Positions 288-27,500 of a stretch of 42,860 nucleotides of DNA are shown piece after piece. The translations under genes were made by a program, and so were the position numbers. The stretch comes from Azolla caroliniana (lineage: Eukaryota > Plantae > Polypodiophyta), in contig JBHGNT010000268.1 of the NCBI GenBank assembly GCA_043228905.1, forward strand, positions 1 to 42,860. Direction: 5' to 3'. Every line of letters starts with the position of its first letter. The stretch's first letter is position 1. The notes under the pieces are model-generated. The model made no database searches, was not told the DNA's origin, and saw only the letters and a program-made list of their open reading frames with translations.

Positions 288-1730
288 TTAGACTCCGGTC
301 GGCCATGCCTCTGGAACTTCGTGAATATCGTACTGATCCGATAGAGGTAGGAGAGCTTGGGACGAGTCGAAGAAGACAAAGGCATCATAGCGACGAGCGA
401 GGCAAGTCGGAACATAGTTTCCCCATCGCTCCGTCAAAGGCTCATAAACCACTCCGATGGCTCGGTTACCCCGCCACTCTAACAGGACACTCGGAGATGT
501 ATTCTTACTATCCATGGCATCCACAACCACATTGTCATCATTATTGGTGTCCTTGGACCTTTTGCCCTTGGGAGGCCCAAAGAGGAGATAGAACTGTTGG
601 AGATGCCCTGCAGCCTTATGCAAGATGTCCTCGAACGAGTCCGGCTTGGCCTCGGGCACACGTAGCTTCTGCACGGGACCCGTCCACTTGTTAGACGCGA
701 CTACCGAACCCTTGTAGGTCCCAAACCCCACTAATGCAACCTCTTCTTCACCGTACCGGAGCCGGGCCAAGCCCCCAATATTCACGCTCCCTTGCTTCTC
801 CATGCTTGTGTAGCGATAATCCCCGATGTGCGTGTTATGGGCCCACACGATGGCGCGCCCTTTGTCCGGCGTGTGTCGGACCAACAGCTCCAAAGTCTCC
901 ATCATGTGCCGGTCCCTCACATTCCATGACTCCGAGCTGCTCCCGAACATGACCGTGCGGTAGTACTTCTCGGCATCCACAGCAACCTTTGCGTTTTGCT
1001 TTATGTCTCTCACGACCTCTTCCTCGTCCTCGGACTTGATCCTAAACCGCTTCTTCCTTACCTCTTGCAAGACCCGGATCACCTCGGCTTTACACCCCTC
1101 GGGGCACTCGGCCAAAAGGTTCATGTATTCTTGTTCGTCCCGATTGGACTGGTGGAAGCACGCATATTGCGCCTTCGCCTTCTCCGCGAGGTCCGGGTCA
1201 AGCTTCTCAAGCTCCGATATGACCACATCCATGGACTCGAAGAGCGAGTAAAGGTCAAGGCCGTAGAATCGCACCTTCCGTCCGCTTTCTTCATTGTAGG
1301 ACTTGAGCCAATTGATGAATGATTCGGTCTCTTTGTTTGCCCACATCCAAGTGGGCCATCTTCGGAAAGCCTTCTTCAAAACCTCCCCGGCAGGAGGTGA
1401 TGTTTCACACTTGTCTAGCTTCTCCGTCTTCTTGCTGGCCGCGGTGGCGGCGGACGAAGAGAAGGCGCCCAAGAGTTTCTTATTGACCGTCTGAGATGCC
1501 GGCCAATCGCCTTCGATCGCAACGAACTCGAATCCGTGCTCCGAGATGAGGCGTTGGGATATGAGACTCCGCCACTCGTAGAAATCATGGGTGCCATGGC
1601 TCGCCTCGCCCAGCATGACCACCCGAGCTTTGCTAATGAACTCTACGAGCCCCGAGAGGCTATTATTCTGGTCATGGAGTGGGACCGCCCACTTCGCCAC
1701 TTCCTTCAGGAGCCCTTCACCCACTGGCAT
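288..1730 (-). CDS. Erythromycin esterase family (EreA/EreB-like) hydrolase, bacterial-type
   Basis: Uninterrupted ORF of about 480 aa (first ATG at 1730; the track start at 1736 is TTG). Family motifs appear in order: VVMLGEASHGTHDFY, GFEFVAIEGDWP, FRRWPTWMWAN, FYGLDLYSL, SWNVRDRHMMETL, IVWAHNTHIGD, VGFGTYKGSV, RAIGVVY, YDAFVFFD, C-terminal PEAWPTGV. An upstream exon at 2088..2001 may supply an alternative N-terminus. Confidence 0.9.
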   Translation of the reverse strand: MPVGEGLLKEVAKWAVPLHDQNNSLSGLVEFISKARVVMLGEASHGTHDFYEWRSLISQRLISEHGFEFVAIEGDWPASQTVNKKLLGAFSSSAATAASKKTEKLDKCETSPPAGEVLKKAFRRWPTWMWANKETESFINWLKSYNEESGRKVRFYGLDLYSLFESMDVVISELEKLDPDLAEKAKAQYACFHQSNRDEQEYMNLLAECPEGCKAEVIRVLQEVRKKRFRIKSEDEEEVVRDIKQNAKVAVDAEKYYRTVMFGSSSESWNVRDRHMMETLELLVRHTPDKGRAIVWAHNTHIGDYRYTSMEKQGSVNIGGLARLRYGEEEVALVGFGTYKGSVVASNKWTGPVQKLRVPEAKPDSFEDILHKAAGHLQQFYLLFGPPKGKRSKDTNNDDNVVVDAMDSKNTSPSVLLEWRGNRAIGVVYEPLTERWGNYVPTCLARRYDAFVFFDSSQALLPLSDQYDIHEVPEAWPTGV

Positions 1731-1791
1731 GATCAATCAATGTATGTAGTTATAGGAGTCCTTTTTTTTAAAATTAAATGATGATGAGCAA

Positions 1792-1921
1792 TTAACTATG
1801 GCTAAAACCTGGCCGTTAACTAATTATGATGGTTATTATGTATGTAGTAGAAATCCCTCTCTTTTTTTACCTATGATTAATTTAACTATGGCTAAACCTG
1901 GCTGTTAACTAATTATGATGG
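1792..1921. repeat. Imperfect ~40-bp direct repeat, two copies
   Basis: ttaactatggctaaaacctggccgttaactaattatgatgg (1792-1832) and ttaactatggctaaacctggctgttaactaattatgatgg (1882-1921). Confidence 0.85.
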
Positions 1922-2000
1922 CTAAAAGGAAATGTATTAACAAAAATGTGTTTCCTAATAGATTTCCTTTTATTTATTCGTATGCTGATGTGGCACTTAC

Positions 2001-2088
2001 CATATTTAGCAAACCATTCTTCTTCTTCTTCTTCTTCTTCTTCTTCTTCTTCTTCTTGATGCTTCCAGATGAAAATCCCCAAATTCAT
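2001..2088 (-). CDS. Putative first exon of the esterase-like gene (MNLGIFIWKHQ-E13-WFAKY)
   Basis: The ATG at 2088 follows an in-frame TGA. The 88-nt exon ends in a consensus donor G|GTAAGT (2001|2000). Splicing to CAG| at 1724|1723 is phase-compatible with the esterase frame. Confidence 0.45.
2017..2057. repeat. (TTC/GAA)n microsatellite
   Basis: About 13 perfect TTC units. Confidence 0.95.
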
Positions 2089-2885
2089 TTCATTCTTTAC
2101 ATCTCAATACATTGAGGAAGATGGAAGCACAGAAATGAATGAATGATTGAAGGAAGTAGATTGTTCACCCCACTAGGGAGTTTGAATAGTATTTTTGGAT
2201 CCATTTTTACCACATTTGTCCTCAACCCCAATCGTGGGAAAGGATAGTGTGGATGGGTGAATATAATGTGTTGCTCCATGGGGACATGTGTGGGGAACAA
2301 AATTTTAAAAAAGGTTATGGCCTATATCACTACAACTATGAATCAAATACCTTGCATGGTTCCTCTAACATGTCAATGTGTGACTAATCTTTCAAGAAAA
2401 ATGTAACATAGATGTCGATTATCAATGATTTTCTTGAACTCTGGCTTGCTATATGTGTATTGCGGTGTCACGAAAACTTGATCCATGCATGAATATATAA
2501 GTTATAAACTGATTTTGGCATCATCAATTGATATGACACCAATAGTATCAATCGTGAATGTTGCAACAATAGATCATCAATTGAAGAATTGAAATATTTG
2601 CACTTGCATATAAGTTTGTATAAAAAAAGGCACTCCGAGAAAAAACAAAAGGTTTCTTATTTTAAAAGACATGTGTTCAAAATATTCATCTTTAAACTAG
2701 TGTATGACTATTTTCACCTTTAGTTCTTGTAGTTAAGTATTTATAGTTTGGCATGCTACTACATTACATTTTCGGTTATCGAGTTGAGACAAGCTATGAT
2801 CAAATGAAATTGCACTCAAGATATTGTTTTAACTAGATTCGAGCTTGTGCATAGGTCCTCAAATTGTACACCTGCAGATCACTAT

Positions 2886-3398
2886 TAACAATCAGCAACG
2901 GAACTGCGATACCACGACTGAACAACTTAACGGTTCGATTTGGTTTGGTTCAGTTCTAGTTTTTTTAACGGTTCGGGTTTGGTTCGGTTTGAATGGTTTG
3001 AATCCATGGTTTAGGGTTGCTAGTTCATTATTATTTTTAATATTTTTTTAAACAACCTTTTCAATAGGGGGGAGGAACAAAGGAGAGCCCACACACGAGC
3101 GCTTAGGAATTCGCTATACCCACCAAATTTTGGTTTTTTAAGTCTATTTCTCACATTTTAGAAAAAAATATTTAAAATTTTGAATTATTTAAAATTTAAA
3201 ATAATGAAAATTTAAAAAGTTTGAATTTTGACCTAATTTGATAACTGAAATTGAACCATGAAACCATAACTTTAATAGTTTGAACTTTTCCTAACGGTTC
3301 GGTTTAAACAGTTTTGGTTTTAATGGTTGTCGTTCAAGTTTCAAATTTTTAAATGGTCTGGTTATGACACTCTCGAACCAAACCGTTGCCAATTGTTA
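2886..3398. mobile_element. Non-autonomous hAT-type DNA transposon (MITE), 513 bp
   Basis: Left TIR taacaatcagcaacgg (2886-2901) matches the reverse complement of ccgttgccaattgtta (3383-3398) at 14/16. Perfect 8-bp TSD atcactat at 2878-2885 and 3399-3406. Repeated subterminal aacggttcg/ggtttggtt motifs. An 8-bp TSD is typical of hAT elements. Confidence 0.85.
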
Positions 3399-4701
3399 AT
3401 CACTATGCCAATATGTCTTGAATCAAATTGTTTGTAATGACTACTCTAAAAGACATGTGCCAATTCATCTACATCCAACTTGATTCCTAACTATCACACC
3501 CCTCATCAAAATTGTTGGAGATGTAACCGAAGATTGATGAAATAATGAAGACTTTCCACATTTTGATACTTAAGTACAAAGCATTAGAAAGCAGCTCCTA
3601 GAAATTGTCGCCAATGACAACAAAAGAGGAATAGTTGATACAAGTGCAAATGACCTTCAAAAATCACGAAAGAAATTTGGCCTAGCCCCCACGCCATCTT
3701 GGCTTCCATGATACTTTAAAAAGTGTACGGATGGAATAATTTCTATTACCAAAAGAGTTTCAATGAGATCAAGAGTTTGTGGATCACTTGTTCAACAAAA
3801 ACATTTAAGAATCTCTACGTTTTCAACTCTTACCATTCACTTTTTCTAATATGCCTACAAACATGACACACTTTTCTTCGCCAAACCCAATAAAGAATTA
3901 TTATATCACTAGTGCCCCAATCTACATGAAGAGATACCTAAATACGTCCCATCAGAAAGCAAAACAATCATGGTCAAGAATCTTTGTTCATGAGATGTAT
4001 TAGACTACGTAATAGGAGTTGGTAGATGGAATGCTAAAAATGATTCATTCAATTAGCTTTAGGACCAAGATTCATTAAAATGCACAAAAACATTGAACAA
4101 AACTTGGAAACCAACTTTACTTCTCATAGGTTTATTACATCATCAAGTTACTGTTGAATGCTATACAGCTCAATCAAGGAACATGAGGCATAAAATGTGA
4201 TCACAAATACAAATTACAAACTGGTAACTGGCAAGGGAGAAGGACTTCACATTCAAATCCCCCCCTTCCTACTTGTTTGTGGAGAGACTTGATGAGTTTT
4301 TTAATTGTGTATTCTGTTACTACCTCTTTTCACCACTCACAAATCCTCAAATGATTTGAACTGATTCATATGAACTGGACAACATAATAAAAAGTTTGCA
4401 TTGCATCCACATTGTAAGCGGTTATTCATTTCTAGATTACATGAAAATATGAGATGGTGAATTAACGGGGAAACAGGCATCTGCACATCAGAAGTGGATG
4501 TTTCATAAACATCAAAAAGATCTTGATTCGTTACAAAACTTCATGCAATGTAGGGAATATGCATAACATTCATTAACACAATAGCATGAAAATGCAGGAA
4601 ACAAAGCATTAATCTTGCCAAGAGATTTTATACGAATGCTATATACGTTACGTAGTTCAGCAGGATAGATATAAAAGTGAGAATATATCTACCTGACTTG
4701 G

Positions 4702-4859
4702 CTTCTCTACAGTGTATGGTACACCTTTAAAACAAGTCTTCTCTACAGTGTATGGTACACCTTTAAAACAAGTCTTCTCTACAGTGTATGGTACACCTTT
4801 TAAAACAAGTCTTCTCTACAGTGTATGGTTATATCAATAAAGCTATATCAATAAAGCTA
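4702..4859. repeat. 36-bp minisatellite (about 3.5 copies) followed by a 14-bp duplication
   Basis: Unit cttctctacagtgtatggtacacctttaaaacaagt from 4702 to about 4829; then atatcaataaagct twice. Confidence 0.9.
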
Positions 4860-5763
4860 TGTTATATCCACAGTTGATCACCTCTTAAAAGTAGGATTAG
4901 CCCACAAACAGTCAAGTTATACATGCAAATACATTGACAATCATGCCCGTTTACTGTTGCCAGAAAATTCCAGGTTATATCCGTAGACCAAAAATGATTA
5001 GTTTAACAGAATTCATGTTATATCAGCAAATACCCAGACTATCATAGCCATCACTCAAATCATATATTTCACACTATGTTCATTAGGAAATCCCTGTTCA
5101 ATTCATAACTAGACTAAAGAAAGTTCGCTAATCCAATTACATAAAAAAAAGCTCAACATAAATAGCTCAACACTATCCCAATCACATAAAAATAGCTGCA
5201 ACATAACCGTATATCCACCCCATGGCTGGAATGAAAAAGACATGGGTGGCCAAAAACATTTTGAAAGTAAAATTAGCCTAAAAAGCGTCACATTTCATCA
5301 TCATCGAATACAAAAATTGTTATCCATCAGATGCTTCTACCCTTGATAAAAAAAAAAGGCAGTATCCTACACCATAAGATACCTCTACAGCGCATGAATA
5401 GCATACAGAAAGTCATGTCACACCATGACATACATCAACAAATCATACCCATATTACATTATCAAACATCTCAACCATAGCATTGAAAGAGAGAGAGAAA
5501 CATAATATGCTATATCATCAAATATCTGATCACCTCAAAAAGAAACAAATGTTATATATCAACACATACATCTAGGCTCAGGACAAAAAAAAGTTTGACA
5601 TGTTACATGACCAAATACATCTCGAAAGCATGATTAGCTACAAAAACAAGTCAGAATTATATCGGCAAATGAACCGCCAATCATTCGCTATCCAGCGCAT
5701 TAAACAAGCCATGTTATATATTGGACATATACCCTCTTAGGGAGAAGAAAAACCCCAAACATA

Positions 5764-6327
5764 TTATACCACCACATACCTCTTCAAAGCGTGCTTTCCA
5801 CCGGCAGCTGCGGCCGCGGCAATGCCACCAAGTGCGCCGGCAAAGGCGGCGGCACGAGGCCCAGCCCCGACTCTAAACAAAGCTCCAGTCCCAAGCCCAG
5901 CCACCACACTATTGAGTATATCATCAGTTCCACGTTGGTGTGTAAGCCCACTCTCTAGTCCTGCATACAGTAGCCCCACAACCCCCATCTTGTTCCCATA
6001 TGAACGCCCCCTATGTCCAGACGCATTTAAGAGGCGGTTCACACGCAGCTTGAGGGTATCATCATGCTCAGCAGCTCGTAATCCGTCAAAGAACCCTAAT
6101 GTGCCTCCGGTGAGAGATCCTGCTAAGTATCCACACCCAGTATAGTATGTCAGATTTTCGCTCCAATTCCGATGCTTCACTGCAGCCTCCTCAGGGAAGA
6201 GGTATTGGGGTGAGGATGGGAGCTTGTAGAGGGAGTTGATCGATTTCTGGTCAAACGATGTGCCTTTATATTCTGCAAATGGGTTGTAATAGCGACCATC
6301 TTCACCGCTGCCAGTTGAAGATGCCAT
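5764..6327 (-). CDS. TIM23: Mitochondrial inner-membrane translocase subunit TIM23 (Tim17/22/23 family), 187 aa
   Basis: Plant TIM23 hallmarks: RYYNPF, LYKLPSSPQYLFPEE, WSENLTYYTG, KLRVNRLLNASGHRGRSYGN, GLLYAGLESG, RGTDDILNSVVAGLGTGALFR, Gly/Ala-rich TM segments. First ATG at 6327; intronless CDS. Confidence 0.95.
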   Translation of the reverse strand: MASSTGSGEDGRYYNPFAEYKGTSFDQKSINSLYKLPSSPQYLFPEEAAVKHRNWSENLTYYTGCGYLAGSLTGGTLGFFDGLRAAEHDDTLKLRVNRLLNASGHRGRSYGNKMGVVGLLYAGLESGLTHQRGTDDILNSVVAGLGTGALFRVGAGPRAAAFAGALGGIAAAAAAGGKHALKRYVVV

Positions 6328-6668
6328 GGATGTTGCGAATCGAAGGTGGAACAACAGAGGATAGTATTGACGAAATTCAGAACAAACAGAAAAAAAAAAA
6401 AAAAAAAAAAACAGAGAACGATTCTATTCGAGGTTTGGACTGAAGATCCCCGCCCCCACCTTACAGATTTCTTGTGAAAGAGGAGGATAAAATCTCAATA
6501 CAGAGATTTCCCGTGTCCTCTCTCACTCTCTGTGTCTGTGTATATGAGTCTCTGTGTCTTCCTTTCCCCTGTCTCTGTCAAAACCCTCCTCAAGCAAGGG
6601 TCAAGGGTTTTAGCATTTCTCTGAGGTATATGCCCAACAAATGCAAAACCCTTTTCACACTTGGGCGC

Positions 6669-8730: not shown

Positions 8731-10178
8731 CTAAGTCTTTGACGTATCTATCCGGCTCTTGTGAAGTTGGAAGGCAGGAACAACCCAAGTTCCACAGCTG
8801 CATTGTGCACCAGCCCAGTCAAAACTACCAAGCCTCGCACTACATACAATACAAGAAAGCTTTCCCATAACATCACCTTCTTGGACTGCAAAAATAAGCT
8901 CGAGTATTACAACAAGGCTAAAGAAAACTAAAACTTCAATTACCACATTCAAAGAATGCCATATCCTACCTGGAATCATCCATTTCATGGGCTGAACAAA
9001 AATAGAAGTGCAGTCCAGCGGTGTCTTCTCATTCCAAAGCCTGTCTTTTCCTCTTCTTTTGAAAGACTTCCCACTCTCTTGGTTATGGATTTGCACATTC
9101 TCTTGACATGCTACTATTTGCCTACATTTTTTACATCGGTAAACCTCTTGATCTCTAGAATCTTGTGGCATTGAAGAAAATTTTGACACAGGGTCAGCTG
9201 GAAGTGACAGCTTTCCAAACTCTTGCACGTAACCAGACTCTTCACCTACATGAGAAGCAATTTAATTGCCTCACTAATTCACTACAATTTACTGTCTCCA
9301 TTCATGCATGCATGTATGCATACTCTATATACATGCATACGCATAATATATATATAATATCCAATAATCACATAGCACATACATATAAAACCATATGCCA
9401 AACCCCTGCAAAGGTTGCAAGATTTGGGATCTCAATCTCAAGATGATAGGCTGTGGGGAAACATTGCATTCTTTAAGTTCTTTACCCCCTCCATTCTACA
9501 ATATATTTTTCTTTTCTCTATCAAATAAACATTTTGGCAGTTGTTTTGCCTTGATCTTCTTTGCCATTTTCAAATATTCATTTTCTAGAAGCAACTTTTT
9601 TACAGCATCTTATTGTTCATGCTTTTGCTTCTTTTACATCAAGCAAGAACATTAGTTCCTAGAGTGTTTTCTGGTTTATATAAAAAAATAGGTTTATTTA
9701 AGAAACCTCCTAGTATGTATGTGTACTGATAAAGCATTCACTATGGTTGCTTCAAAACCACAACAAAAACTGTCTTCCGCATATATAAAGAGAATCATGG
9801 CAAGCTTAGCACACAATATGAAGGGAGAAGTGTTTTATGACAAAGGAGGGAAGTCAATTTCTTTTCAAATGTTTAATGAATTGTCTGTTTTAAATGAACT
9901 TAAAAGGTTAAAATAAATGCATGTGTGTGTATGTGCAAATGTATAGGTATACATGTATATAGACATGCAGTTGTGCGTGTATGTGTATGTGCAAAAAGCA
10001 GATCATAAAGCGATCGAATCAGATATATAACTGAAATAACCCTGTTTCCTACATTCCGTGATGTGAATCCAAAATTCCATGCATTTAAAGAAAGGGCAGA
10101 AGACAGAGATTGAGATGGAAATCTGAAGCAGAGAATAATAGACAGAGAGTTGCTACCTGCAGGTTGGATGGCAGCCAT
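8731..10178 (-). CDS. Stand-alone Zn-binding domain of a YVH1/DUSP12-type dual-specificity phosphatase (At4g18593-like, no catalytic domain), about 150 aa
   Basis: Exons 10178..10157 (MAAIQPA G), 9245..8970 and 8885..8731, joined by phase-compatible GT-AG introns. Motifs YRCKKCR, CTSIFVQPMKWM, GKLSCIVCSARLGSFDWAGAQCSCGTWVVPAFQLHKSRID. An in-frame TAG lies upstream of the ATG. No HCxxGxxR motif. Confidence 0.88.
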
Positions 10179-16165: not shown

Positions 16166-19100
16166 CTAAGTTTCTTGCAGGACACAAATGCCTTTTTTGC
16201 CTATGATGGCATATCTTGGTGATGACGATTGCAATGAATTTAATGGAGATGAAACATCTTCCATAAGCATAGATGACAAGATAGTGGGCCCCTTGCAAAC
16301 ACACTTTCCATCTTCGAAAACATGGAGATTGTTGGGATCTCTAATCATAATCTTTCTATTCTCTATTTTTGAGATAAGCGATGTGCCAAAATGGCAGTGA
16401 CTACATATACATGTGTTATTCACAACATGAATAGTTTCCCCTTGGTATGTATTGATGAGAGCACAAGCAATGGCTAACTTCTCACTATGTCCACAGAGCA
16501 CATCATTCTTTACATCATCATAAGTGCTTCGTAACACCCAAAGAGCACTAGATGGATAGCCTGCTTGTTTCATTTTAAGAGCAATTGCTTTTATCTTAGC
16601 ATGTATGATTTTCCTTTGAGGATGTCTTGTATCCCCCACAGAAAATGAATGAGCATTTCCACTGACATCAACCCAAACACTGTTTCCCCGATCTTTCCAA
16701 ACGGCATATTTCAGTCTCATGGCTTCAACTTTGTCTGCATCCTCTTGCATACCAGCAGCTGCAAAAATATTAGCTATAAGAACATAAGCTACAGCACAGC
16801 TATCATCAAGTTGCACAGCCTGATCAAAAGCTAATATCCCAAGCTCTACATTTCCCCATTTTCTACAACCACCTAATAATGCAACCCAAACATCATGATA
16901 ATCAGAAGACGGCATCACTTTAATCACTGACATTGCCTTATCAAACAGCCCTGCATATCCAAAAACCACCACCATGCAAGTATGGTGCTTCACATTAGGA
17001 TTGACATCATATTTTCTTGACATATCCCCAAAAATCGTTTGGGCCTCATCCAATAGCCCTGAGCGGCCACATGCACTCAAAACACAAAGGAATGTAATTG
17101 CATCTGGAGAGAAACCCTCAGTTTGCATCAGCTCAAAACAGTTCAGTGCTTCATGACCTTGTCCCTGTTGGGCAAGCCCTGCAATTAATGTATTCCAAGC
17201 AACTACATCTCGTGTAGGAAGTGCTTTAAGAACCTTTTGTGCCTTTCCAAGCTGACCACATTTAGCATACATATCCACCAAAGCAGTACCAAGTACAACA
17301 TCTTTCTCCAGCAAGTTCCTATTGACAATCTGTTCATGAATTTCTTCGCCTATGTCTATAGCGCCCGTGCTAGCACAAGCTCTCAAGATGCATATCAAAG
17401 TTACTGCATCTGGAGAGAAATCCTCACTCTGCATGCGCTCAAAACAGTTCAATGCCTCGTGACTCTGCCCCCGTTGGACATACCCTGCAATTAGAGCAGA
17501 CCAAGATACAACATTTCGAACAGGAAGGCCTTGAAGCACTTCTTGTGCTTTTGCAAGCATGCCACATTTGCTGTACATGTCTACCAAAGCATTGCCAAAA
17601 ACAATATCCTTCTCTAGTAAGCCTCTATTTATAATTTCATCATGGATTTTTTTCCCTTTGTCAATAGCTCCTATTTCCCCGCATGCCTTTAAGATTGACG
17701 TAAAGGTAACTGCATCAGGCGAGAGGCCCTCACTCAGCATTTTTTCAAAACAACTCAGTGCTTCATGACCTTCCCCTTGCTGAACGTATCCTGTAATTAG
17801 TGCATTCCAAGAAACTACATTGTGAATAGAAAGATCTTCAAGCACTTCTTGTGCTTTTGCAAGACAACCACATTTGGCATACATATCCACTAAGGCAGTG
17901 CCAAGTACAGAATTCTTCTCTAATAGGCCCCTATTTGCAACCTCTTCATGGATTTGTTTGCCTTTGTCGACAGCTCCTGTGCTACTACAAGCCTTCAATA
18001 TACATGTGAAAGTGACTGTATCCGGGAAAAGTCCCTCTCCTTGCATCCGTTCAAAACAGTTTATCGCTTCTTGGCCTTGCCCTTGTTGGGCGTATCCTGC
18101 TATAAGTGCAGACCAAGAGACAATGTTCCGGACAGGAAGCTCATCAAGCACTGCCTGTGCTTTTGCAAGCACGCCACATTTGGCATACATATCAACAAGA
18201 GCAGTACCGAGCACAATGTCTTTTTTAAGACCCCTATTCAGAATCTCTTCATGAACCTTCTCTCCCTTGCTTATAGCCCCCGTACTACCACAGGCCTTCA
18301 AGATAGATATAAAGGTGACTGAATTCGGAGAAAGGCCCTCATTCAGTATCCGTTCAAAACAATGCAACACTTCATGAAACTGCCCCTGTTGAAGATACCC
18401 CACAATTAGTGCATTCCAAGAGACTATGTTGCGAACAGAAAGTTCTTCAAGCACCTGTTTCGCTTTTACAAGCACACCACATTTGGCATACATATCCACC
18501 AATGCAGTACCAAGTACAATATCCTTCTCCAGCAAGTTCCTACCCACAATTTCTTCATGAACTTGGTTGCCCTTCTCTATAGCCCCAATACTACCACATG
18601 CCTTTAAGATGCAAATGAAGGTGATGGTGTTTGGGGAGATGCCCTCTCTTTGCATTTGATCAAAACAGTTCAATGCTTCATGACCTTGCCCCTTTTGAGT
18701 ATACCCAGTAATCAGTGCATTCCAAGAGACCACATTTCTAACCAGAAGCTCTTCAAGCACTTGTTTTGCTTTCGGAAGCATCATACATTTGGCATACATA
18801 TCCACCAAAGCTGTGCCGAGCACTACATCCTTCTTCAGCAAACCCCTACTCACAATTTCTTCATGAATTTGTTTACCCTTCTCTATAGCTCCGATATTGG
18901 CACAAGCCTTCAAGATGCAAATGAAGCTGATAACATCCGGAGAGAGACCCTCACTTTGCATTCTCTCAAAGCAATTCAGAGCTTCTTGACCTTGCCCATG
19001 TTGTGCATATCCTGCAATTAATGCATTCCAACATACTAAATCTCGGACCGGTACATTCTCAAGAACTTCTTGTGCTTTTTCAATCATCCCACATTTGGTA

Positions 19101-19585
19101 TACATACTGATCAAAGTGCTGGCTATGTAAGGGTTGTTTTCGAGCAAGCCTCTGTTCAGAATCTGAGCATGAAGATTAATGCCTTTACTAATATCCCTTT
19201 TCTGGCCACAAGTCTTCAGCAAGGCCACAAAAGTATGAGTTTCGGTGCGGGTTCCATCTGTATGCCTTTCTTGCAACAATCCAATCTCTCTTCTCCTGTG
19301 CTGAGACCTAAAATCTGGCAGGATTGAACCATCCTGGATTAAGACAAACAATCTCTCTCTCACACACAATCAAAATGTGGCCTCTCGGATTGCAACATTC
19401 ATTGGTAAAGTTCTTGCACATTGGGAGTGGCTATTCACTTTCACATGTATTAGGTAAAATGCAATATTTTTGGCCTCTTAGGTCATATTTGACCCCCAAA
19501 GACAATAATAGAATATATCTCTCTCTCTTTCTCTTTCACTCTCTCCCTCCCATTAAACCCTAAACCCTCTTTCTTTCTGTGTGTA

Positions 19586-19626
<41 letters not shown>

Positions 19627-19713
19627 AAGCGTGGGTGTATCAGAGCTTCTTACCTTGATGCTATGAAGAGCTGTTCTTTCAAAGGGCGCATTCGATTTCC
19701 TCTGTCTCGCCAT
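16166..19713 (-). CDS. PLS-class PPR protein with E and DYW-like deaminase domain (PPR-A), organellar RNA editing factor family
   Basis: Exon 1 19713..19654 (MARQRKSNAPFERTALHSIK, AAG|gtaag) splices in phase 0 to exon 2 19333..16166 (ccag|GAT). Seven P-L-S triplets (WNALIAGY / TFICILKAC / LVDMYAKCG), E domain (VWVALLGGCRKWGN), then SVWVD...VGDTRHPQ...CGHSEKLAIA...CSHCH...HVFEDGKCVC. Confidence 0.92.
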
Positions 19714-21503
19714 GGAATCATGGGGGCTGGCATGGCATCCTGGTCATTTGGCATTGGCAGAGAGTTGTATCCGCTCCATTATGTGCCCGGCAATGGTAAC
19801 TGCTCCTGTTGTCCAGCAGCACGGACATCTCCCACACTCACTCTATAAGATGATGGATGCTATGTCATAGGCCCCATGTCATGCCCAAAGCATCCCTGAG
19901 CATAAATAACATCTTATCGCACGTGTAGACAGACGGACACTTAGCAATAGACTAGATATTACCCCGCCTATCGACCTTCAATAGATACATTTAGTTCGTC
20001 TTTTAAAGTGTGGTTATTAATGTCATTGATCACAAGCAATGACGCCCATTTCTAACTAGTATCTCCACTAATCTTCCTTTCAAATACTTCCATGTACTAG
20101 AGCTTAGTCTACATTCTCTAGTTCTTACATGAGGTTCATCATATTTACCTAAGATGGAACATCCAACTATCATGCGAGTTGATTGATTAAGAATGTGATT
20201 AATACAATGTTATTTATCAATCACAAATACCATCTTTATATTTTTATGGGATTTTATCAATTTCTTTAGCCTATTGTAGATATATACATCCCTTCGTCTA
20301 TTTAGCCTAATGTGAGGGAGATGAGTATTCCTAATAGGATGAAGTGCATATAAATTGTGCTCTAATAAACATGAACAAAGTGAACCCTTATAGCTTATAT
20401 GGGAATGCATTGATTCAATAGGTAGAGCCTTGCTTCTAATTACAAATAGAGACAGACAGACAGAGAGAGAGAGAGAGAGAGAGAAGTCGAGTTTGCAAGG
20501 ACATTATATCACTGACACCAACACATAGAAGTATCATATCATTTGGCATCTTACTTTCATGGTCATCTCCACCCCACTCTCATCCGTCAAGGGCGGTCCC
20601 TACGGGATCAAAAGCATTTTGTAATGTCTTCATAGTAGGATGCAGCGAATTTATGTAGCACATAGGTGAATGTCACACATATCGTCAAATTTTACTTGGG
20701 CATTCCAAGTCATGTCCTAGGAATGATCCAAACGTGATTTGAATTATACAATAAATCTAATGCATGCATATATGTGACCCACCTACCATTGTCACACTAA
20801 ACAATGAATTTAATTCATCATTGTCTTTTGCATGGTGTGAAACATATATTGATGTCAATCTAAACTATCTTTTTAGGAGCACAGCTACATAAGAAGTAAA
20901 AGCGTGTCCTAAGACAAGTCATTTAATAGCTTGATGAAACATATTAATAGGTAATAAGATGATCCATTTACGTTTAGACAAAAGAGACGGTATTCCAATG
21001 GTAACTTTATCCCACAAAGTTACATAAGCACAAACCTCCAACAACAATGATAGACACTAGAAAATTCTCTTTTATTAGTATGTCTTTCCTTCACAAGATT
21101 ACAAAAACATTATGGGTTGCATCTCAAGTTCACATGGATGGCAGCAATAAAGGAAGAAATTTGAGATACGATGGGACATGCAACTTTTTGTTGGTAGAAA
21201 CTCTCCCTTCTTGAATCTTTGAGCTTGAATCTAAAATCAAAATGCTCTCTTTCTCTTGCCTTCATCCATGGATGTAAAGGGATGAATAAATTTGAAGTTT
21301 CCCACGCCTCTAATGTCTTGATTTTTTATCCCAAGTGACAATCTACTAATAACACAATCCGTGTTAAGAGAGTGTTTTCTTTATTGTAAGGGTAATATCT
21401 CAAGCCTAAATATATCTGTTTATTTGTTTATTATACTGCAAGTTAACATGAACAGCTGAGATCTTGATTGGGTCTCATAGGGCACAATGGCCTTTTAAAG
21501 ATG

Positions 21504-24500
21504 TTAATATATCCTTTTTCCTTCTTCCATCAACCCACATAGTATTTCCCCCTCCTTGCAACAAGCATACTTCAGTCTACATGCTTCTACGTTGTCTGCA
21601 TCTTGATGCATGCCAGCAGCACCTAAAATGCTGCCCATAAGGACATAAGCTGCAGCATTATCATCTGCTTGTACAGCTTGATCAAAGGCCAATAGACCAA
21701 GCCTTATGTTTCCCCATTTCTTACAAGATGCTAACAGTGTAAGCCAAACCGCTGGATAATCTGAACAAGGCATTGCCTTAATGACCGAAATTGCCTTGTC
21801 AAAGTGTCCAGAACATCCGAGAACCATCACCATGCACGTATGGTGCTCTACCCTTGGAGTTATATCATATTTCCTACTCATATCTCCAAAGAATAGTTGC
21901 GCTTTGTCTGAGAGACCAGAGTGACTGCATGCATTCATAACACAAAGGACTGTGACCTCATCTGGAGACAGACCTTCAATTTGCATCTCTTCAAAGCAGC
22001 ATAATGCTTCATGGACTTTCCCTTGTTGGGCATACCCTGCGATGAGTGCATTCCATGAGATGACAACTCGGATGTCAAGCTCATCGAGTACTTCTTGTGC
22101 TTTTGCCAGTACACCACATTTGGCATACATGTCCACTAAAGCATTGCTGAGCTCGAAATACTCACCAAGGATACCCTTGCTTACAATCTCTTCATGAATT
22201 TGTTTGCCCTTGCCTATAGCTCCTATGCTCCCACATGCCTTCAAGATGCAAATGAAAGTAACAGCATTTGGAGAGAGGCCCTCAGTTTGCATTTGTTCGA
22301 CGCACTTCAATGCTGCATGTCCTAGCTCGAACTGGACATGCCCTGCAATCAATGCATTCCATGTGATGACTCCTCGAATTGGAAGCTCTTTAAGCACCTT
22401 TTCTGCTTTTACAAGCATGCCACATTTAGCATACATATCTACCAAAGCAGTGCCAAGTGCAATATTTTTAATCAGCAAACCCCTACTCACAATTTCATCA
22501 TGGATTTGTTTACCCTTCTCTATGGCATCTATACAGCTACAGGCTCTCAAGATATGGGTAAAGGTTACTCCGTCTGGAGTGAGGCCCTCACTTTGCATCT
22601 GTTCAAAACAGTTCAGTGCTTCATGACCTCGCCCCAGCTCAGTATACCCTCCAATTAGTGAATTCCATGAAACTAAATCTCGAACAAGAAGCTCTTCCAG
22701 GACTTCTTGTGCCTTTGCAATCACACCACATTTAACATACATATCAACCAAAGCCGTTCCAAGCACAACATCCCAATCCATCAAGCCCCTGCTCTGAATC
22801 TCTTCATGGATTAGTTTGCCTTTTTCTATAGCCTCTGCACTGCCACATGCTTTCAGGATGGAAATGAAGGTGACTGAGTCTGGAAAGAGACCCTCATCTT
22901 GCATCCGTTCAAAACAGTGGAGGGCTGCATGGCCTTGTCCCTGCTCCACAAACCCTGCAATTAGTGCATTCCAAGAAACTATGTCTCGAACAGGAAGCTC
23001 TTCCAGTACTTTCTTCGCTTTTCTCAGCAGACCACATTTCGCATACATATCAACTAATGCAGTGCCAAGCACAACATCCTTCTCCAAAAGACCTATATGC
23101 ATAATCTCTTCATGAATTTGTTTGCCCTTCTCTATAGCTCTCGCACTGCCACATGCCTTCAAGATGCAAATCAAGGTGATCACATCTGGAGAGAATCCCA
23201 CACATCGCATCTGATTAAAGCAGCTTAGTGCTTTGTGAAGAAGTCCTTCTTGGGCATACCCTGCAATTAATGCAGACCAAGAGACTACATTTTGAACAGG
23301 AAGTTCTTCCAGCATCTGCAGTGCTTTTTCAAGCATGCCACATTTGGCATACATGTCTACCAATCCATTTCCAAGAGCAATATCTTTCTCAAGCAAACCC
23401 CTAGTTGCAATCTCATCATGAATTTGTTTGCCCTTGTCTACATCTCTTGTCTTTCCACAAGCATTCAAGAGACAAATGAAGGTGACCTCATCTGGAGCGA
23501 GGCCTTCATTTTGCATTTGTTCGAAACAAGTTAGTGCTTCTTGACCTTGTCCTTGTTGGGAATACCCTGCAATCAGTGCATTCCAAGAGGCTACATTTTG
23601 GATTGGAAGTTCATTAAGCACCTCTTGTGCCTTCACAAGCAAATCGCACCTGGCATACATATCCACCAAAGCTGTGCAAAGCATGATATCTTCCCCAAGC
23701 AGGCCCTTTCTCACAATCTCGCAATGTACTCGGTTTCCCAGATCTATAGCTTGTGTAATGCCACAAGCCTTCAAGACACAAACGAATGTTACTGCATCTG
23801 GAAAGAAGCCCTCATTTTGCATCTTATTATAACACTTCAATGCTTCATGAGCTTCCCCCCGTCGTGCATACCCCATAATAAGTGCAGACCATGCAACTAC
23901 ATTTCGAGAGGGAAGCCCTTCAAGTACTTCTTGTGCTTTCTCAACCACACCGCATTTAGCATACATATCCACCAAAGCAGTGCCAAGCACAATATCCTTC
24001 GCTAAAAACCCTTTTCTCATAATATCATCATGAATTGCCTTCCCCTTGTCTATGGCATATGTGCTGCCACAGGCCTTTAAAATGCAAATGAAAGTGACTG
24101 CATTTGGAGAGAGACCCTCGCTTTGCATTCGATCAAAACACTTTAGAGCTTCATAATGCTGTCCATGATCAGCATACCCAGCAATTAGGGCATTCCAAGA
24201 GACTGCATTTCGAATTGGAAGATCTTCGAGCACTTCTTGAGCTTTTATTACGGCACCACATTTGGCATACATATCCACCAATGCGGTTCCAAGCACGATA
24301 TGTTTTTCTAGCAAACCCCTGCTTACAATCTCATCATGAATTTGTTTGCCCTTGTCTATAGTTTTCATGCTACCGCATGCCTTCAAGGTGCAAAGAAAGC
24401 TAACCTCATTTGGATTAATACCCTCATTTTGCATTCGTTCAAGACATTGCAACGCTGCATGACCTTGACCCTGTTGGACATACCCTGAAATAAGCACATT

Positions 24501-25773
24501 CCAAGAGACTTCATTTCGGATAGGTAGCCCTTCAAGCACATTTTGTGCTTTTGCAAGCAAGCCACATTTGGCATACATATCAACCAATGACGTGCCAAGG
24601 ACAACATCTGTTTCCAATAAGCCTCTATTTGCAATTTCATCATGGATTTGTTTTCCCTTCACTATATCTAGTTTTCCACCACATGCCTTCAAAATAGAGA
24701 TGAAGGTGACCCCATCTCTGGGGAGGCCCTCAATTTGCATCAACTCAAAACAATTAATTGCTTCTCCATATTTCTCTTGTAAGACATACCCAGCAATTAA
24801 GGCATTCCAAGACACTGTATCATGAACCGAAAGATTTTCAAACACTTCCTGTGCTTTAAAAATCATCCCACACTTGGCATACATATTAATCAAAGTGCTG
24901 GTGAGGTATGGACTCTTCTCAAGCAAACTCCTTTTCACAATATCAGCATGAACTTTGGATCCTGTATAAATATCCTTGCTCTTGGTACAAGCCTTGAGTA
25001 CGTTTATAGAAGTAAGAACTTCATTGATATGTTCATTTTTTACTCCTTTGTTACTCCTTTCCTTGAACTGCCCCTGTTTTTCTTGAAGAATAGTTCTTCG
25101 TCTGAGTTCATCAAGAACCCAAGAGGGGTTTTTCCATCCATCAACCCACAAAGGCACATAAGTGACTGTGTGTGTAAAATCGGGTGATCTCGAGGTGGTC
25201 TTTATCAAGTTTCAACACAAAAAACAAAAAATCTCTCTCACTAGTTGTTGGCTTTGATGGTTTACAACATAGCATTAAAACAATAAAATTGAGAGAACTC
25301 AAGTTTGGTCCTTTCCCGGACCCCCAGATTGTATTCAATCTCCCTGGGATTTTAATAATCTATTAATCTCTCTCATGTGTTTCTTCACGTTAGGCTTATA
25401 CCTTCTAGTAAGCCAAGCTACTATTTTTCCATGCACTCATGCTCAAATCTCACAATGTGTACAATTACAGTGGATGCCATTGGCAGGACATAGGGGTTTC
25501 AACAGGTGACCGTCAGAACTAACGTAGGGGTTTGAGCATGACCTTCAGAACTAAGCTGAGCATCGTTACCAACAGAACTACAATGTCTGGCCATCTCTCT
25601 CTATCTATATAGCTATCTATCTCTAACTCATTCACTCACTCACAAATCAATATATACATACATACCTTTGTGGTGCGATTGTCTGCCCATAGCAAAGGCT
25701 CCCTAAAATACTCCTTCCATAGGAGGTCCGTCCCTTCCGCAGCAGCCAAACCTGATCTCCTCTGAATCGCCAT
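21504..25773 (-). CDS. Very long PLS-class PPR protein ending after the E domain (PPR-B)
   Basis: Ten P-L-S triplets in the 21504..25208 ORF, whose track start is TTG, plus E domain VWLTLLASCKKWGN. Probable exon 1 at 25773..25666 (MAIQRRSG...NRTTK, AAG|gtatgt). A phase-0 acceptor at about 25200|25199 is plausible but uncertain. Confidence 0.88.
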
Positions 25774-26047
25774 AGGATCGGATCGCCATTCATGTCTTCC
25801 TTTGCCCGTCAGTAAATCAGAAAGCTGCAAGCATATGATGATGGATGGGAGGGGGGCAGGGGAATCACATTTTAACCGGAGGTCGAACTTAACTCATCCA
25901 TACATATTATTTCTTATAACACGATTTGAAGTGCAAAAGAGGGAGCCAAATTGCAATAGATTATAGAATCATAAATAGATGAGTTTACACATCCCAATTT
26001 TTAATTGAATGATATCAAACAATGAGACCTCTAATAAGGAATTATGA

Positions 26048-26085
26048 TTTAGGGTTTTAGGGTTTTAGGTTTAGGGTTTAGGTTT
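26048..26085 (+). repeat. Interstitial telomere-like (TTTAGGG) tract
   Basis: tttagggttttagggttttaggtttagggtttaggttt. Confidence 0.85.
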
Positions 26086-26489
26086 GCGAGTTCAAATGAG
26101 GAATTATGATTTAGGATTTCATTGCGAGATCTTACCTTGATCTAGTGCCCATCTTATTGCCCGCCTTGCTCATCTCTATAGATCTTACCTTGATCTAGTG
26201 TAAAGCTAAAATCCTATGTATATTTCTATATAGGATAGATGGATATTCTCATACCGTCATGTTAATTGATCATTTGTCAATTTTCCAGGAGTGAGTGCAT
26301 TGTGTGACACAATGGTTTGTTAATAATTGGGGTTTCATTATCATAGTTTTAGATGGTAGAATGTCAAAATGGAGAACACTATTTAATTGTGTAATATCCA
26401 TAAACATTATTATTATTTGCGAAGATATAGTATCTTAAAAGCCACAATAGCTAGAATCGTGCCTTTTGAAGAAAGAATGAGATTATCAT

Positions 26490-27447
26490 GACAAAAACGT
26501 CTCCTCGTGAATGGGGGTAGATTAGACACAGGGAGAGAGGTTCTATTATGTCCACAAAATTTACATCTTTCGAATCATTTTGGTTATGTTCCTCTCATGA
26601 CTCCTCTCAACGTCTTCAATGAGTTCCTCTAATGTCTTCCACAATGGCTTTAGATTCCACATTCTCTAGCAACTTCCTTAAAGACTTGTCTTGCAAATAA
26701 TAAAATCACCCTATTTATAATTTTGTAACTTCTTTGGAGTATGAGTCATGTTCCATCCAAGAAACCTTCAACAACAACCTTGCACAATCATTTGTGAAGG
26801 GAAAGGATCAATCGAAAACTCCTCGATCACTGTGATCAGCTTGGCCTCTTCGTCTCCACGACCATATTCTCCTATTGCCAACCATGTAGGAATCATCTTC
26901 AAAATTTCAAGCTCGGTCATCTGGAATCACCTTTTTGTCCTTGTTTCCCAAAGTCTTACCCCACATCCTCGATCACAAATATTATGCTTAGTCCAACTAG
27001 ATGCACAATAAGTCTTCAAAGTGTTCAACTCCAAAAGGTCTATTACTTCTCTTGATCTAAAAACACATCAAGATTTGGTCCATCAGCATTTGTATGTTCA
27101 TTAATGATCTCATTATTTGAGATGCCCAAAGACTCAAAAACTCTAAATTACAAGTCCTCTACTCTGCCTCAATCTTCCAACTTTTGTTCTCAGAAGACCT
27201 TCTTTCAGGCTGCACCACAGCCCTCATATCACTACTATTTTCTTTTTTTTCAGCTATTGATAGTAGTCACTCTTACTCATACAAAGGTTTTACCGATGCA
27301 TAACATCTCCCTTGCAATAATATAATTTCAAGTTCTTTGCATGTGATTCCCTTCAACTCTGAACCTCTCTATCTAGGATACTCCCCATCTTCTCAAGGTT
27401 TTCCATGGTGCTCCCAGTTCTGAAGGACATACAGCCCCCCCTCATTC
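26490..27447 (-). mobile_element. LTR-retrotransposon remnant: polypurine tract plus 3' LTR
   Basis: On the minus strand, gaatgagggggggc (27447-27434) is followed directly by TGTA (27433), and an LTR-type TATA box TATAAATAGGG lies at about 26720-26710. The distal LTR boundary is approximate. Confidence 0.55.
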
Positions 27448-27500
27448 AATCTTAAGATTGAGAATGTTTTATATTCCCAAATGAAAATACATTTGGCCAT

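What the first reader, a model, noticed from the sequence alone, without database searches (positions are those of the whole stretch)
288..1730. Intact bacterial-type erythromycin-esterase-family hydrolase in a plant nuclear genome (horizontal transfer candidate)
Seen: a full-length ORF with the Ere-family signature residues intact (GExxHG, the AIE glutamate, HNxH) and the RWPTWMWAN and C-terminal PExxPxG motifs. It has no introns in the catalytic region, is visibly richer in GC and CpG than its flanks, and sits on the same stretch as clear plant genes (TIM23, PPRs, eIF4G) and a plant MITE. Two low-complexity loops (SSSAATAASKK..., GPPKGKRSKDTNNDD...) suggest divergence after arrival. Established: Ere enzymes open macrolide lactone rings, the family is mainly prokaryotic, and the Pseudomonas effector HopBA1 shares the fold. 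Inference: a laterally acquired hydrolase that may detoxify microbial macrolactones (plastid ribosomes are macrolide-sensitive) or act on another ester or amide substrate. I am not aware of a characterised plant member.
Basis: partly seen in the sequence, partly recalled or inferred. Interest (0 to 1): 0.85.

Follow-up and report, generated by a model that had tools for sequence, protein, structure and literature searches.

The report
Ancient bacterial-type hydrolase in ferns
This is a real, conserved fern gene for an enzyme of the erythromycin-esterase fold, shared with a spikemoss and most like genes of predatory bacteria, so it was likely acquired from a microbe early in vascular-plant history and likely cuts some ester other than the antibiotic.

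Summary
The ORF (288-1730, minus strand, 480 aa) is real. It scores 364 bits on PF05139, keeps all five EreC catalytic positions and folds like BcR136/EreC. It is not contamination: contigs from independent runs of several related species cross the 1750 junction at plant single-copy depth, overlapping contigs tile to TIM23, 25 of 27 listed between-species changes are synonymous, and one probable-RNA contig skips a GT-AG intron at 1724-2000. It is not a recent arrival either. Orthologues in Adiantum, Ceratopteris and Selaginella form one species-tree-like clade (99/95) inside a Bdellovibrionota-rich group (100/100). No named algal, bryophyte or seed-plant hit was listed. The nearest sister is a set of unlabelled, eukaryote-looking environmental genes (91/91), so the direct donor, bacterium or protist, is unresolved. 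The high GC is not a sign of recent transfer. Macrolide detoxification is unlikely: EreA/B/D models score 21-31 bits against cut-offs of 750-800, the closest structure (BcR136) does not cut macrolides, and bacterial relatives are fused to PRTase, DLH and PCMT domains. Verdict: an old horizontally acquired ester hydrolase of ferns and lycophytes, auto-annotated in databases and not described in the papers I could search.

The parts
288..1730 (-). Ere-like hydrolase ORF, 480 aa from the ATG at 1730 (start used in vivo uncertain, see intron)
   Evidence: fold
1605..1607 (-). E42, equivalent of EreC E47 (orients the catalytic His)
   Evidence: alignment to 6xcq; E in 435 of 454 homologues; role from PMC7979712
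1596..1598 (-). H45, equivalent of EreC H50 (proposed general base)
   Evidence: H in 446 of 454
1512..1514 (-). E73, equivalent of EreC E78 (holds the catalytic water)
   Evidence: E in 448 of 454
915..917 (-). R272, equivalent of EreC R261 (proposed transition-state stabiliser)
   Evidence: R in 453 of 454
828..830 (-). H301, equivalent of EreC H289 (second His of HNxH)
   Evidence: H in 453 of 454
1404..1463 (-). Disordered low-complexity loop 1 (residues 90-109), a hot spot for indels between related species
   Evidence: pLDDT<50; indels at 1393-1425 in run X18
495..575 (-). Disordered low-complexity loop 2 (residues 386-412)
   Evidence: pLDDT<50; contigs of X17 and X18 break at a simple repeat near 549-551
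1724..2000 (-). Likely spliceosomal intron, 277 nt, 30% GC, donor GTAAGT, acceptor CAG; splicing it removes the ATG at 1730
   Evidence: loose end of an X18 contig at 1724 matches window 2002-2030 with one extra base; boundaries; seen in one contig of one run of another species
2001..2088 (-). Likely upstream exon over a trinucleotide microsatellite; an in-frame ATG at 2088 would give a 507-aa form with an acidic N-terminal tract in this species
   Evidence: computed; frame differs by one base in X18, so coding use is not shown
2884..3400 (.). High-copy MITE-like element between the gene and TIM23
   Evidence: inverted ends; high depth in three DNA runs
5764..6330 (-). TIM23-like gene, the nearest clear plant neighbour
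   Evidence: PF02466 104 bits; linked by overlapping contigs

Best explanation
This is an intact, conserved fern nuclear gene of the erythromycin-esterase fold, shared with Selaginella, that was likely acquired once from a microbe (ultimately Bdellovibrionota-like bacteria) by an early vascular plant and likely works as a cytosolic ester or lactone hydrolase on a non-macrolide substrate. Shown: integration, conservation, plant monophyly, nesting among Bdellovibrionota-like genes, fold and catalytic residues. Inferred by analogy with EreC: H45, oriented by E42 and helped by E73 and H301, deprotonates a water that attacks an acyl carbon, and R272 stabilises the tetrahedral intermediate. Inferred from fusions in bacterial relatives (PRTase-like, dienelactone hydrolase, isoaspartyl methyltransferase): the substrate is a small metabolic, damage-derived or microbial ester. 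Inferred: loss in seed plants, and a cytosolic location because the conserved start lies directly before the fold with no room for a transit or signal peptide.
For: Integration: X2 contig spans 1-2009 with 3 differences; one X9 contig (another species) spans 4-2891; depths 13-20 over the gene against 17-27 in single-copy flanks; overlapping X9/X2 contigs tile to TIM23. Selection: 25 of 27 listed CDS differences are synonymous. Intron. Orthologues: Adiantum 58%, Ceratopteris 59%, Selaginella 47%. Trees: plant-like rows one clade at 99/95 and 100/93, in species-tree order, inside a 100/100 group in which 17 of 18 named genome loci are Bdellovibrionota. Selaginella joined to the eukaryote-like sister group is rejected, p-AU 0.029. 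Fold: BcR136 Z 41.0, rmsd 2.7, 379 aligned; BcR135 Z 39.8; EreC Z 32.7, rmsd 3.6, 378 aligned. BcR135/136 cleave p-nitrophenyl butyrate and BcR136 does not cleave macrolides (PMC6109786). EreA/B/D models give 31/24/21 bits against cut-offs 750/750/800. Fusions: PF00156 in 12 of 120 listed hits and DLH in 1; PCMT fusion in P0161 and in an Atlas cluster.
Against: No activity or substrate was tested. Under the C20 mixture model (quick tree) Selaginella is not joined to the ferns with support: the node is open. Selaginella joined to a Bdellovibrio subgroup is not rejected, p-AU 0.058, so two acquisitions remain possible. The nearest sister is eukaryote-looking, which weakens a direct bacterium-to-plant reading. 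Absence from algae, bryophytes and seed plants rests on the top 120 rows of two searches, most of which carry no name. The one spliced form seen removes the conserved ATG, so the protein actually made is not established. RNA status of runs X6, X7, X16, X18 is not on record. The same fold includes a peptidase (RRSP, Z 9.1) and non-enzymes.
Confidence: 0.6

Rival explanations
1. Origin rival: the gene reached plants from a microbial eukaryote, or is an old eukaryotic gene kept patchily in protists, lycophytes and ferns; the bacterial transfer happened earlier and elsewhere.
For: Six unlabelled environmental sequences (P0054, P0138, P0325, L084, L085, L158) are sister to the plant clade at 91/91, 93, 94 (three of them) and 86 with long-branch rows included. 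L084 has an 85-nt GT-AG intron-like stretch just before its ATG and 60% ORF cover against a median 95% in 80 genome loci; the gene next to L158 (29% GC) reads through from an upstream ATG when a 22-37 nt GT-AG stretch is removed. Family members are reported in a fungus (PMC7299934) and as a putative bacterial transfer in a dinoflagellate (PMC11453091).
Against: The sister link is unstarred and absent from the 61-row careful tree. Plants joined to a Bdellovibrio subgroup without these rows is not rejected, p-AU 0.134. None of the six has a taxon label; eukaryotic status is inferred. No named alga, bryophyte or seed plant was listed, so pure vertical descent needs many losses.
Confidence: 0.35
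2. Function rival: a protein-repair or protein-demodification hydrolase that opens succinimides or removes methyl or phosphoribosyl esters from protein side chains, or cleaves an amide bond.
For: Relatives are fused to PCMT (P0161; Atlas cluster with PF01135 in 100% of 51 members) and to PRTase-like domains. 14 of 30 matches in sampled Bdellovibrionota genomes lie in frames over 600 aa. The fold includes the endopeptidase RRSP (abstract start of PMC6254334).
Against: The plant proteins are stand-alone; no neighbour other than fusions recurred widely around 80 bacterial loci; RRSP similarity is distant (Z 9.1, 188 aligned). No paper linking the family to isoaspartate repair was found (1 paper, unrelated passages).
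Confidence: 0.25
3. Function rival: a macrolide or macrolactone detoxifier that protects plastid translation from soil or water actinomycetes.
For: All five EreC catalytic positions are kept, including the basic residue at 261. Both lobes of the Ere fold are present. The water fern Azolla survives erythromycin treatment that removes its cyanobiont (passage in PMC6786969); whether Azolla's tolerance involves such a gene is unknown.
Against: 16-19% identity to EreC; EreA/B/D scores about 4% of cut-off; the closer structural relative BcR136 lacks macrolide activity; the catalytic residues are family-wide (453 of 454 for R272), so they do not mark macrolide use.
Confidence: 0.12
4. Bacterial contamination or chimeric assembly.
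For: No single contig spans the gene to TIM23; closest non-plant hits are bacterial.
Against: Contigs from X2, X9 and X17 cross 1750 with plant flanks; depth matches single-copy plant DNA; orthologues lie on 0.7-136 Mb plant scaffolds; likely spliced intron.
Confidence: 0.01

Closest known systems
BcR135 / BcR136 of Bacillus cereus (PDB 2rad, 3b55, 2qgm)
   Same: Best structural match (Z 41.0 and 39.8); both lobes; Glu-His-Glu-His site; general esterase on p-nitrophenyl butyrate (PMC6109786).
   Different: Only 20-22% identity; lack the RWPTWMWAN block and the Arg at the 261-equivalent position; natural substrate also unknown.
Erythromycin esterases EreA/EreC (type I) and EreB/EreD (type II)
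   Same: Same fold (EreC Z 32.7) and the five catalytic positions E47, H50, E78, R261, H289 (PMC7979712).
   Different: 16-19% identity; NCBIfam scores far below cut-offs; no macrolide activity shown; nuclear plant gene under long-term vertical descent.
Uncharacterised 'erythromycin esterase family protein' subfamily of Bdellovibrionota and other bacteria (RWPTWMWAN type, often fused to PRTase, DLH or PCMT)
   Same: 44-50% identity over the full length; shares the subfamily motifs and two conserved cysteines; the plant clade nests here.
   Different: Stand-alone in plants, with two disordered insertions and a likely 5' intron; found in 29 of 201 sampled Bdellovibrionota genomes, so patchy there too.
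Reported bacteria-derived fern genes: Tma12, squalene-hopene cyclase, aerolysin-like genes, phenolic acid decarboxylases
   Same: Bacterial affinity, plant neighbours, intron gain; aerolysin-like genes share the Ceratopteris plus Selaginella distribution (PMC6786969, PMC9477723, passages).
   Different: A different family, not mentioned in those papers or their searchable supplements; apparently low copy rather than tandemly amplified; function untested.
HopBA1, ChaN, RRSP, PMT C2 (EreA/ChaN-like fold)
   Same: Major-lobe fold (Z 12.0, 13.3, 9.1, 8.8).
   Different: HopBA1, ChaN and PMT lack the minor lobe (PMC7979712); about 190-200 aligned residues at 9-15% identity; no sign of a secreted effector role here.

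Membership tests
Pfam PF05139 Erythro_esteras family | Score above the gathering cut-off over the full profile | tested here: met
   363.7 bits vs 26.4; profile 1-357 of 358
Pfam PF05139 Erythro_esteras family | Two-lobed Ere fold (sheet lobe plus four-helix lobe) | tested here: met
   Model pTM 0.83; Z 41.0 to 2qgm, 32.7 to 6xcq with about 380 residues aligned
Pfam PF05139 Erythro_esteras family | Catalytic E47/H50/E78/R261/H289 equivalents | tested here: met
   E42, H45, E73, R272, H301 by sequence alignment to 6xcq
True macrolide-resistance esterases EreA/B/C/D | NCBIfam EreA, EreB or EreD score above cut-off | tested here: not met
   31.4/750, 24.2/750, 20.8/800 bits
True macrolide-resistance esterases EreA/B/C/D | Hydrolysis of the macrolactone ring | not testable with these tools
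   needs purified enzyme and LC-MS
True macrolide-resistance esterases EreA/B/C/D | Type I or type II set of 38 pocket-lining residues and the Gly/Pro lid loop | not tested
Horizontally acquired plant nuclear gene | Physically integrated among plant genes | tested here: met
Horizontally acquired plant nuclear gene | Plant copies nested within a prokaryotic clade with support | tested here: met
   100/100 and 97/94 enclosing nodes with Bdellovibrionota branching outside; root on other bacterial and one archaeal sequence
Horizontally acquired plant nuclear gene | Direct sister is the donor lineage | tested here: inconclusive
   sister is unlabelled eukaryote-looking sequences at 91/91; bacterial sister not rejected, p-AU 0.134
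Horizontally acquired plant nuclear gene | Absent from green algae, bryophytes and other outgroups | tested here: inconclusive
   no such name in the top 120, but most rows are unnamed and no plant genomes could be searched directly
Horizontally acquired plant nuclear gene | Expressed and under purifying selection | tested here: met
   25 of 27 listed differences synonymous (40 of 191 difference rows were shown); spliced contig in X18 implies RNA, though no run is on record as RNA
Recent, lineage-specific transfer | Restricted to this species or genus | tested here: not met
   orthologues in Pteridaceae ferns and Selaginella in species-tree order

The most novel reading that the evidence does not exclude
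An early vascular plant took up a hydrolase of predatory-bacterium type, possibly by way of a phagotrophic protist; ferns and lycophytes have kept it for some 400 million years as a defence that opens microbial macrolactones, and seed plants lost it, making it a native plant antibiotic-inactivating enzyme and the first link between Bdellovibrionota genes and land plants that I could find.
Probability: 0.1. Interest if true: 0.8.

Novelty: new member of a known kind. Interest (0 to 1): 0.45.

Why it matters
It adds a family to the short list of microbe-derived genes that ferns and lycophytes kept and seed plants appear to lack, dates the gain to the base of vascular plants or earlier, and points to an unusual source group (Bdellovibrionota-like, perhaps through a protist). 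The subfamily is large and biochemically uncharacterised, so a Ceratopteris knockout plus an enzyme assay would test its function for plants and bacteria at once. If it did open macrolides it would be a native plant antibiotic-inactivating enzyme.

Tried and rejected
No whole genome is held for the window, so copy number and synteny could not be checked. No RNA holder is on record among 24 listed runs; partial cover of the CDS by X6, X7 and X16 is compatible with low-level transcripts but was not used as evidence of level. GC/CpG richness as a transfer signature: rejected. Contamination: rejected. Gene neighbourhoods of 80 bacterial loci gave no widely shared partner; the 46-locus cluster was an ORF overlapping the gene itself on the opposite strand, and others were lineage-specific. 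P0166, P0227 and P0281 sit near the plants in some trees but move between trees on long branches, and were left out of the 37-row tree with 8 other rows. The 'shorter' search added one further plant-like fragment (P0335) and one piece of P0002 among 120 rows; longer (fused) forms were not searched in that collection. The neighbour of L158 had no Pfam match and the Atlas could not read it. Paper searches that found no description of a plant member: (0 papers with 'erythromycin esterase' and 'Selaginella'); supplements of PMC6786969 and PMC9477723 had no hit (one scanned file not searched). A land-plant-wide HGT survey that I recall (Ma et al. 2022, Molecular Plant) is not held and may list this family. 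Earlier findings of this scan: nothing. No complex prediction was run. Endosymbiotic origin was considered: no cyanobacterial locus is among the 80 best genome loci, but that scan stopped at 600 candidates, so this is weak.

Full report
OBSERVATION. It matches Pfam PF05139 over the whole profile at 363.7 bits. The neighbours are plant genes: a Tim17/22/23 protein, a PPR-DYW protein and a MIF4G protein. A high-copy element with inverted ends lies at 2884-3400. The ORF is GC- and CpG-rich (54.9%, o/e 0.93) against the PPR and eIF4G ORFs (40-44%, 0.28-0.34), but TIM23 is also 52.7% GC.

IT IS PART OF THE PLANT GENOME. Twenty of 24 listed runs, from 14 studies, hold some of the stretch, five of them half or more; I laid 8 of the 24. 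In X2 one contig covers 1-2009 with 3 differences. In X9, labelled as another organism, one contig covers 4-2891. Depth over the gene (13-20) is of the same order as the single-copy flanks (17-27). No contig spans the gene to TIM23, but X9 record 25 (4-2891), X2 record 2 (2068-4731), X9 record 27 (3332-5498) and X2 record 6 (4767-6377) overlap in a chain. In more distant relatives (X17, X18) 25 of the 27 listed differences inside the CDS are synonymous (the tool showed 40 of 191 rows, chosen by support). An X18 contig ends its match at 1724 and continues with 50 letters whose first 30 match window 2002-2030 with one extra base. The skipped 277 nt begin GTAAGT and end CAG on the minus strand, and the DNA-like run X17 covers most of them, so this is likely a spliced intron. 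It rests on one contig of one run. Splicing removes the ATG at 1730, which aligns with the starts of the Adiantum, Selaginella and bacterial proteins. An in-frame ATG at 2088 would give 507 aa in this species, but the extra base in X18 shifts that frame. Which protein is made is unexplained. Ceratopteris also has two annotated isoforms that differ at the N-terminus.

IT IS OLD. The best hits are Adiantum nelumboides (58%), Ceratopteris richardii (59%), Selaginella moellendorffii (47%, three full-length records and one short one), an unlabelled Logan cluster on 1.4-1.5 kb contigs (P0002, 49%) and a JGI fragment (P0154, 72%). A profile of seven plant-like rows found no further named plant among its top 120; a search of shorter proteins added P0335. 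In a 61-row IQ-TREE (LG+G4; bootstrap not fully settled) the nine plant-like rows are one clade at 99/95 in the order Selaginella, P0002/P0335, then (Adiantum, Ceratopteris) with (window, P0154). A 37-row tree without long branches gives 100/93. That order follows the species tree, so the gene was likely present before ferns and lycophytes split. The host is therefore a fern, sister here to the two Pteridaceae; its dense gene spacing suggests a water fern (inference; not identified). Against this: under the C20 mixture model with long-branch rows included, the node joining Selaginella to the ferns is open, and Selaginella with a Bdellovibrio subgroup is not rejected (p-AU 0.058), though Selaginella with the eukaryote-looking group is (0.029). 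These groups were chosen after seeing trees. A gene this old would have lost any donor base composition, so its GC says nothing about origin (inference).

WHERE IT CAME FROM. The plant clade lies inside a group supported at 100/100 against Gemmatimonadota, Bacteroidota, Actinomycetota, Chloroflexota and other relatives. In the 387-row FastTree, 17 of the 18 named genome loci in that group are Bdellovibrionota, and all 17 Bdellovibrionota loci among the 80 fetched fall there. The gene is in 29 of 201 sampled Bdellovibrionota genomes. The nearest sister, however, is six unlabelled environmental sequences (91/91; unresolved). Three could be read as DNA and look eukaryotic: L084 has an intron-like GT-AG stretch before its ATG and long ORF-poor flanks, L158 is 29% GC with a neighbour that needs a tiny GT-AG intron to reach an ATG, and L085 is a contig no longer than its gene. 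A tree joining plants directly to a Bdellovibrio subgroup is not rejected (p-AU 0.134). So ultimate bacterial ancestry is well supported, while the direct donor is open: bacterium or protist. Other eukaryotes carry family members: a fungal secretome table lists one (PMC7299934, one passage) and a review lists one as a putative bacterial transfer in a dinoflagellate (PMC11453091, one passage); I could not place those in my trees.

HOW IT LIKELY WORKS. The AlphaFold model (13 sequences, pTM 0.83) matches BcR136 (Z 41.0, rmsd 2.7, 379 aligned), BcR135 (39.8) and EreC (32.7), far above ChaN (13.3) and HopBA1 (12.0) (Foldseek agrees on the top group). PMC7979712 (parts 1-3 of 5 read) proposes that EreC uses H50 as base, oriented by E47, with E78 and H289 holding the water and R261 stabilising the intermediate. 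These align to E42, H45, E73, H301 and R272, which are kept in 435-453 of 454 homologues and in 5 of 6 plant-like proteins checked; one Selaginella copy, P0003, has Cys for R272. The chemistry is thus likely water attack on an acyl carbon. The substrate is probably not a macrolide: EreA, EreB and EreD models score 31, 24 and 21 bits against cut-offs of 750-800, and BcR136, the closest structure, cleaves p-nitrophenyl butyrate but not macrolides (PMC6109786, passages). Close bacterial relatives are often fused to a PRTase-like domain (12 of 120 hits), to dienelactone-hydrolase-like domains or to PCMT, which points to small metabolic or damage-derived esters, or to protein repair. I commit to a cytosolic ester or lactone hydrolase on a non-macrolide substrate; location and substrate are inferred.

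WHAT IS KNOWN. UniRef already names the Selaginella and Ceratopteris proteins 'Erythromycin esterase' by automatic annotation. Eight paper searches aimed at plant or eukaryotic members found no description of them (listings and abstract starts only). The Azolla/Salvinia and Ceratopteris genome papers describe other bacteria-derived genes (Tma12, SHC, aerolysin-like, PAD) but not this one in the passages and supplements searched (one scanned file unread). A land-plant-wide HGT survey I recall was not held and may list it. bioRxiv supplements were not searched.

VERDICT. Real, intact and conserved; an ancient microbial acquisition of ferns and lycophytes, not a recent transfer and not a demonstrated macrolide esterase. 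New member of a known kind; interest 0.45.

Noticed in passing
L084:1121-1205, L158:640-2719, L085:1-1429; P0054, P0138, P0325: A clade of unlabelled, eukaryote-looking Ere-like genes from JGI metagenomes is the nearest sister of the plant genes; probably protist genes with small introns.
   Followed up: partly
window 1724-2088 (-): The one spliced form seen removes the conserved start codon; the upstream exon runs over a trinucleotide microsatellite whose frame differs between species.
   Followed up: partly
window protein residues C191 and C213 (about nt 1160 and 1094): Two cysteines in the minor lobe are conserved in 426 and 430 of 454 subfamily members; possible disulfide or metal site, not seen in the BcR135/136 alignments.
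   Followed up: no
P0003 (Selaginella SELMODRAFT_120707): One Selaginella copy has Cys in place of the otherwise invariant R272 and other odd changes, and P0125 on the same scaffold is a 234-aa truncated model; it may be a decaying copy or allele.
   Followed up: no
window 16166-29603 (-): Three long intronless PLS-type PPR ORFs in tandem, the first with a DYW deaminase domain: typical fern RNA-editing factors.
   Followed up: partly
window 8731-9261 (-): ORF with CxxC-rich segments resembling the zinc-binding tail of DSP12/YVH1-type phosphatases (recalled resemblance; no Pfam hit at 0.001; likely interrupted by an intron).
   Followed up: no
window 1792-1924: An approximately 90-nt tandem duplication inside the likely intron.
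   Followed up: no
window 41555-41899: A tandem duplication of about 50 codons' length shows as a repeated peptide in an ORF listing; may be a local repeat or an assembly artefact.
   Followed up: no
plasmid collection: Subfamily members at 35-42% identity lie on 193 plasmid records, mostly Sinorhizobium (67) and Rhizobium (54), so plant-associated bacteria carry more distant copies.
   Followed up: no
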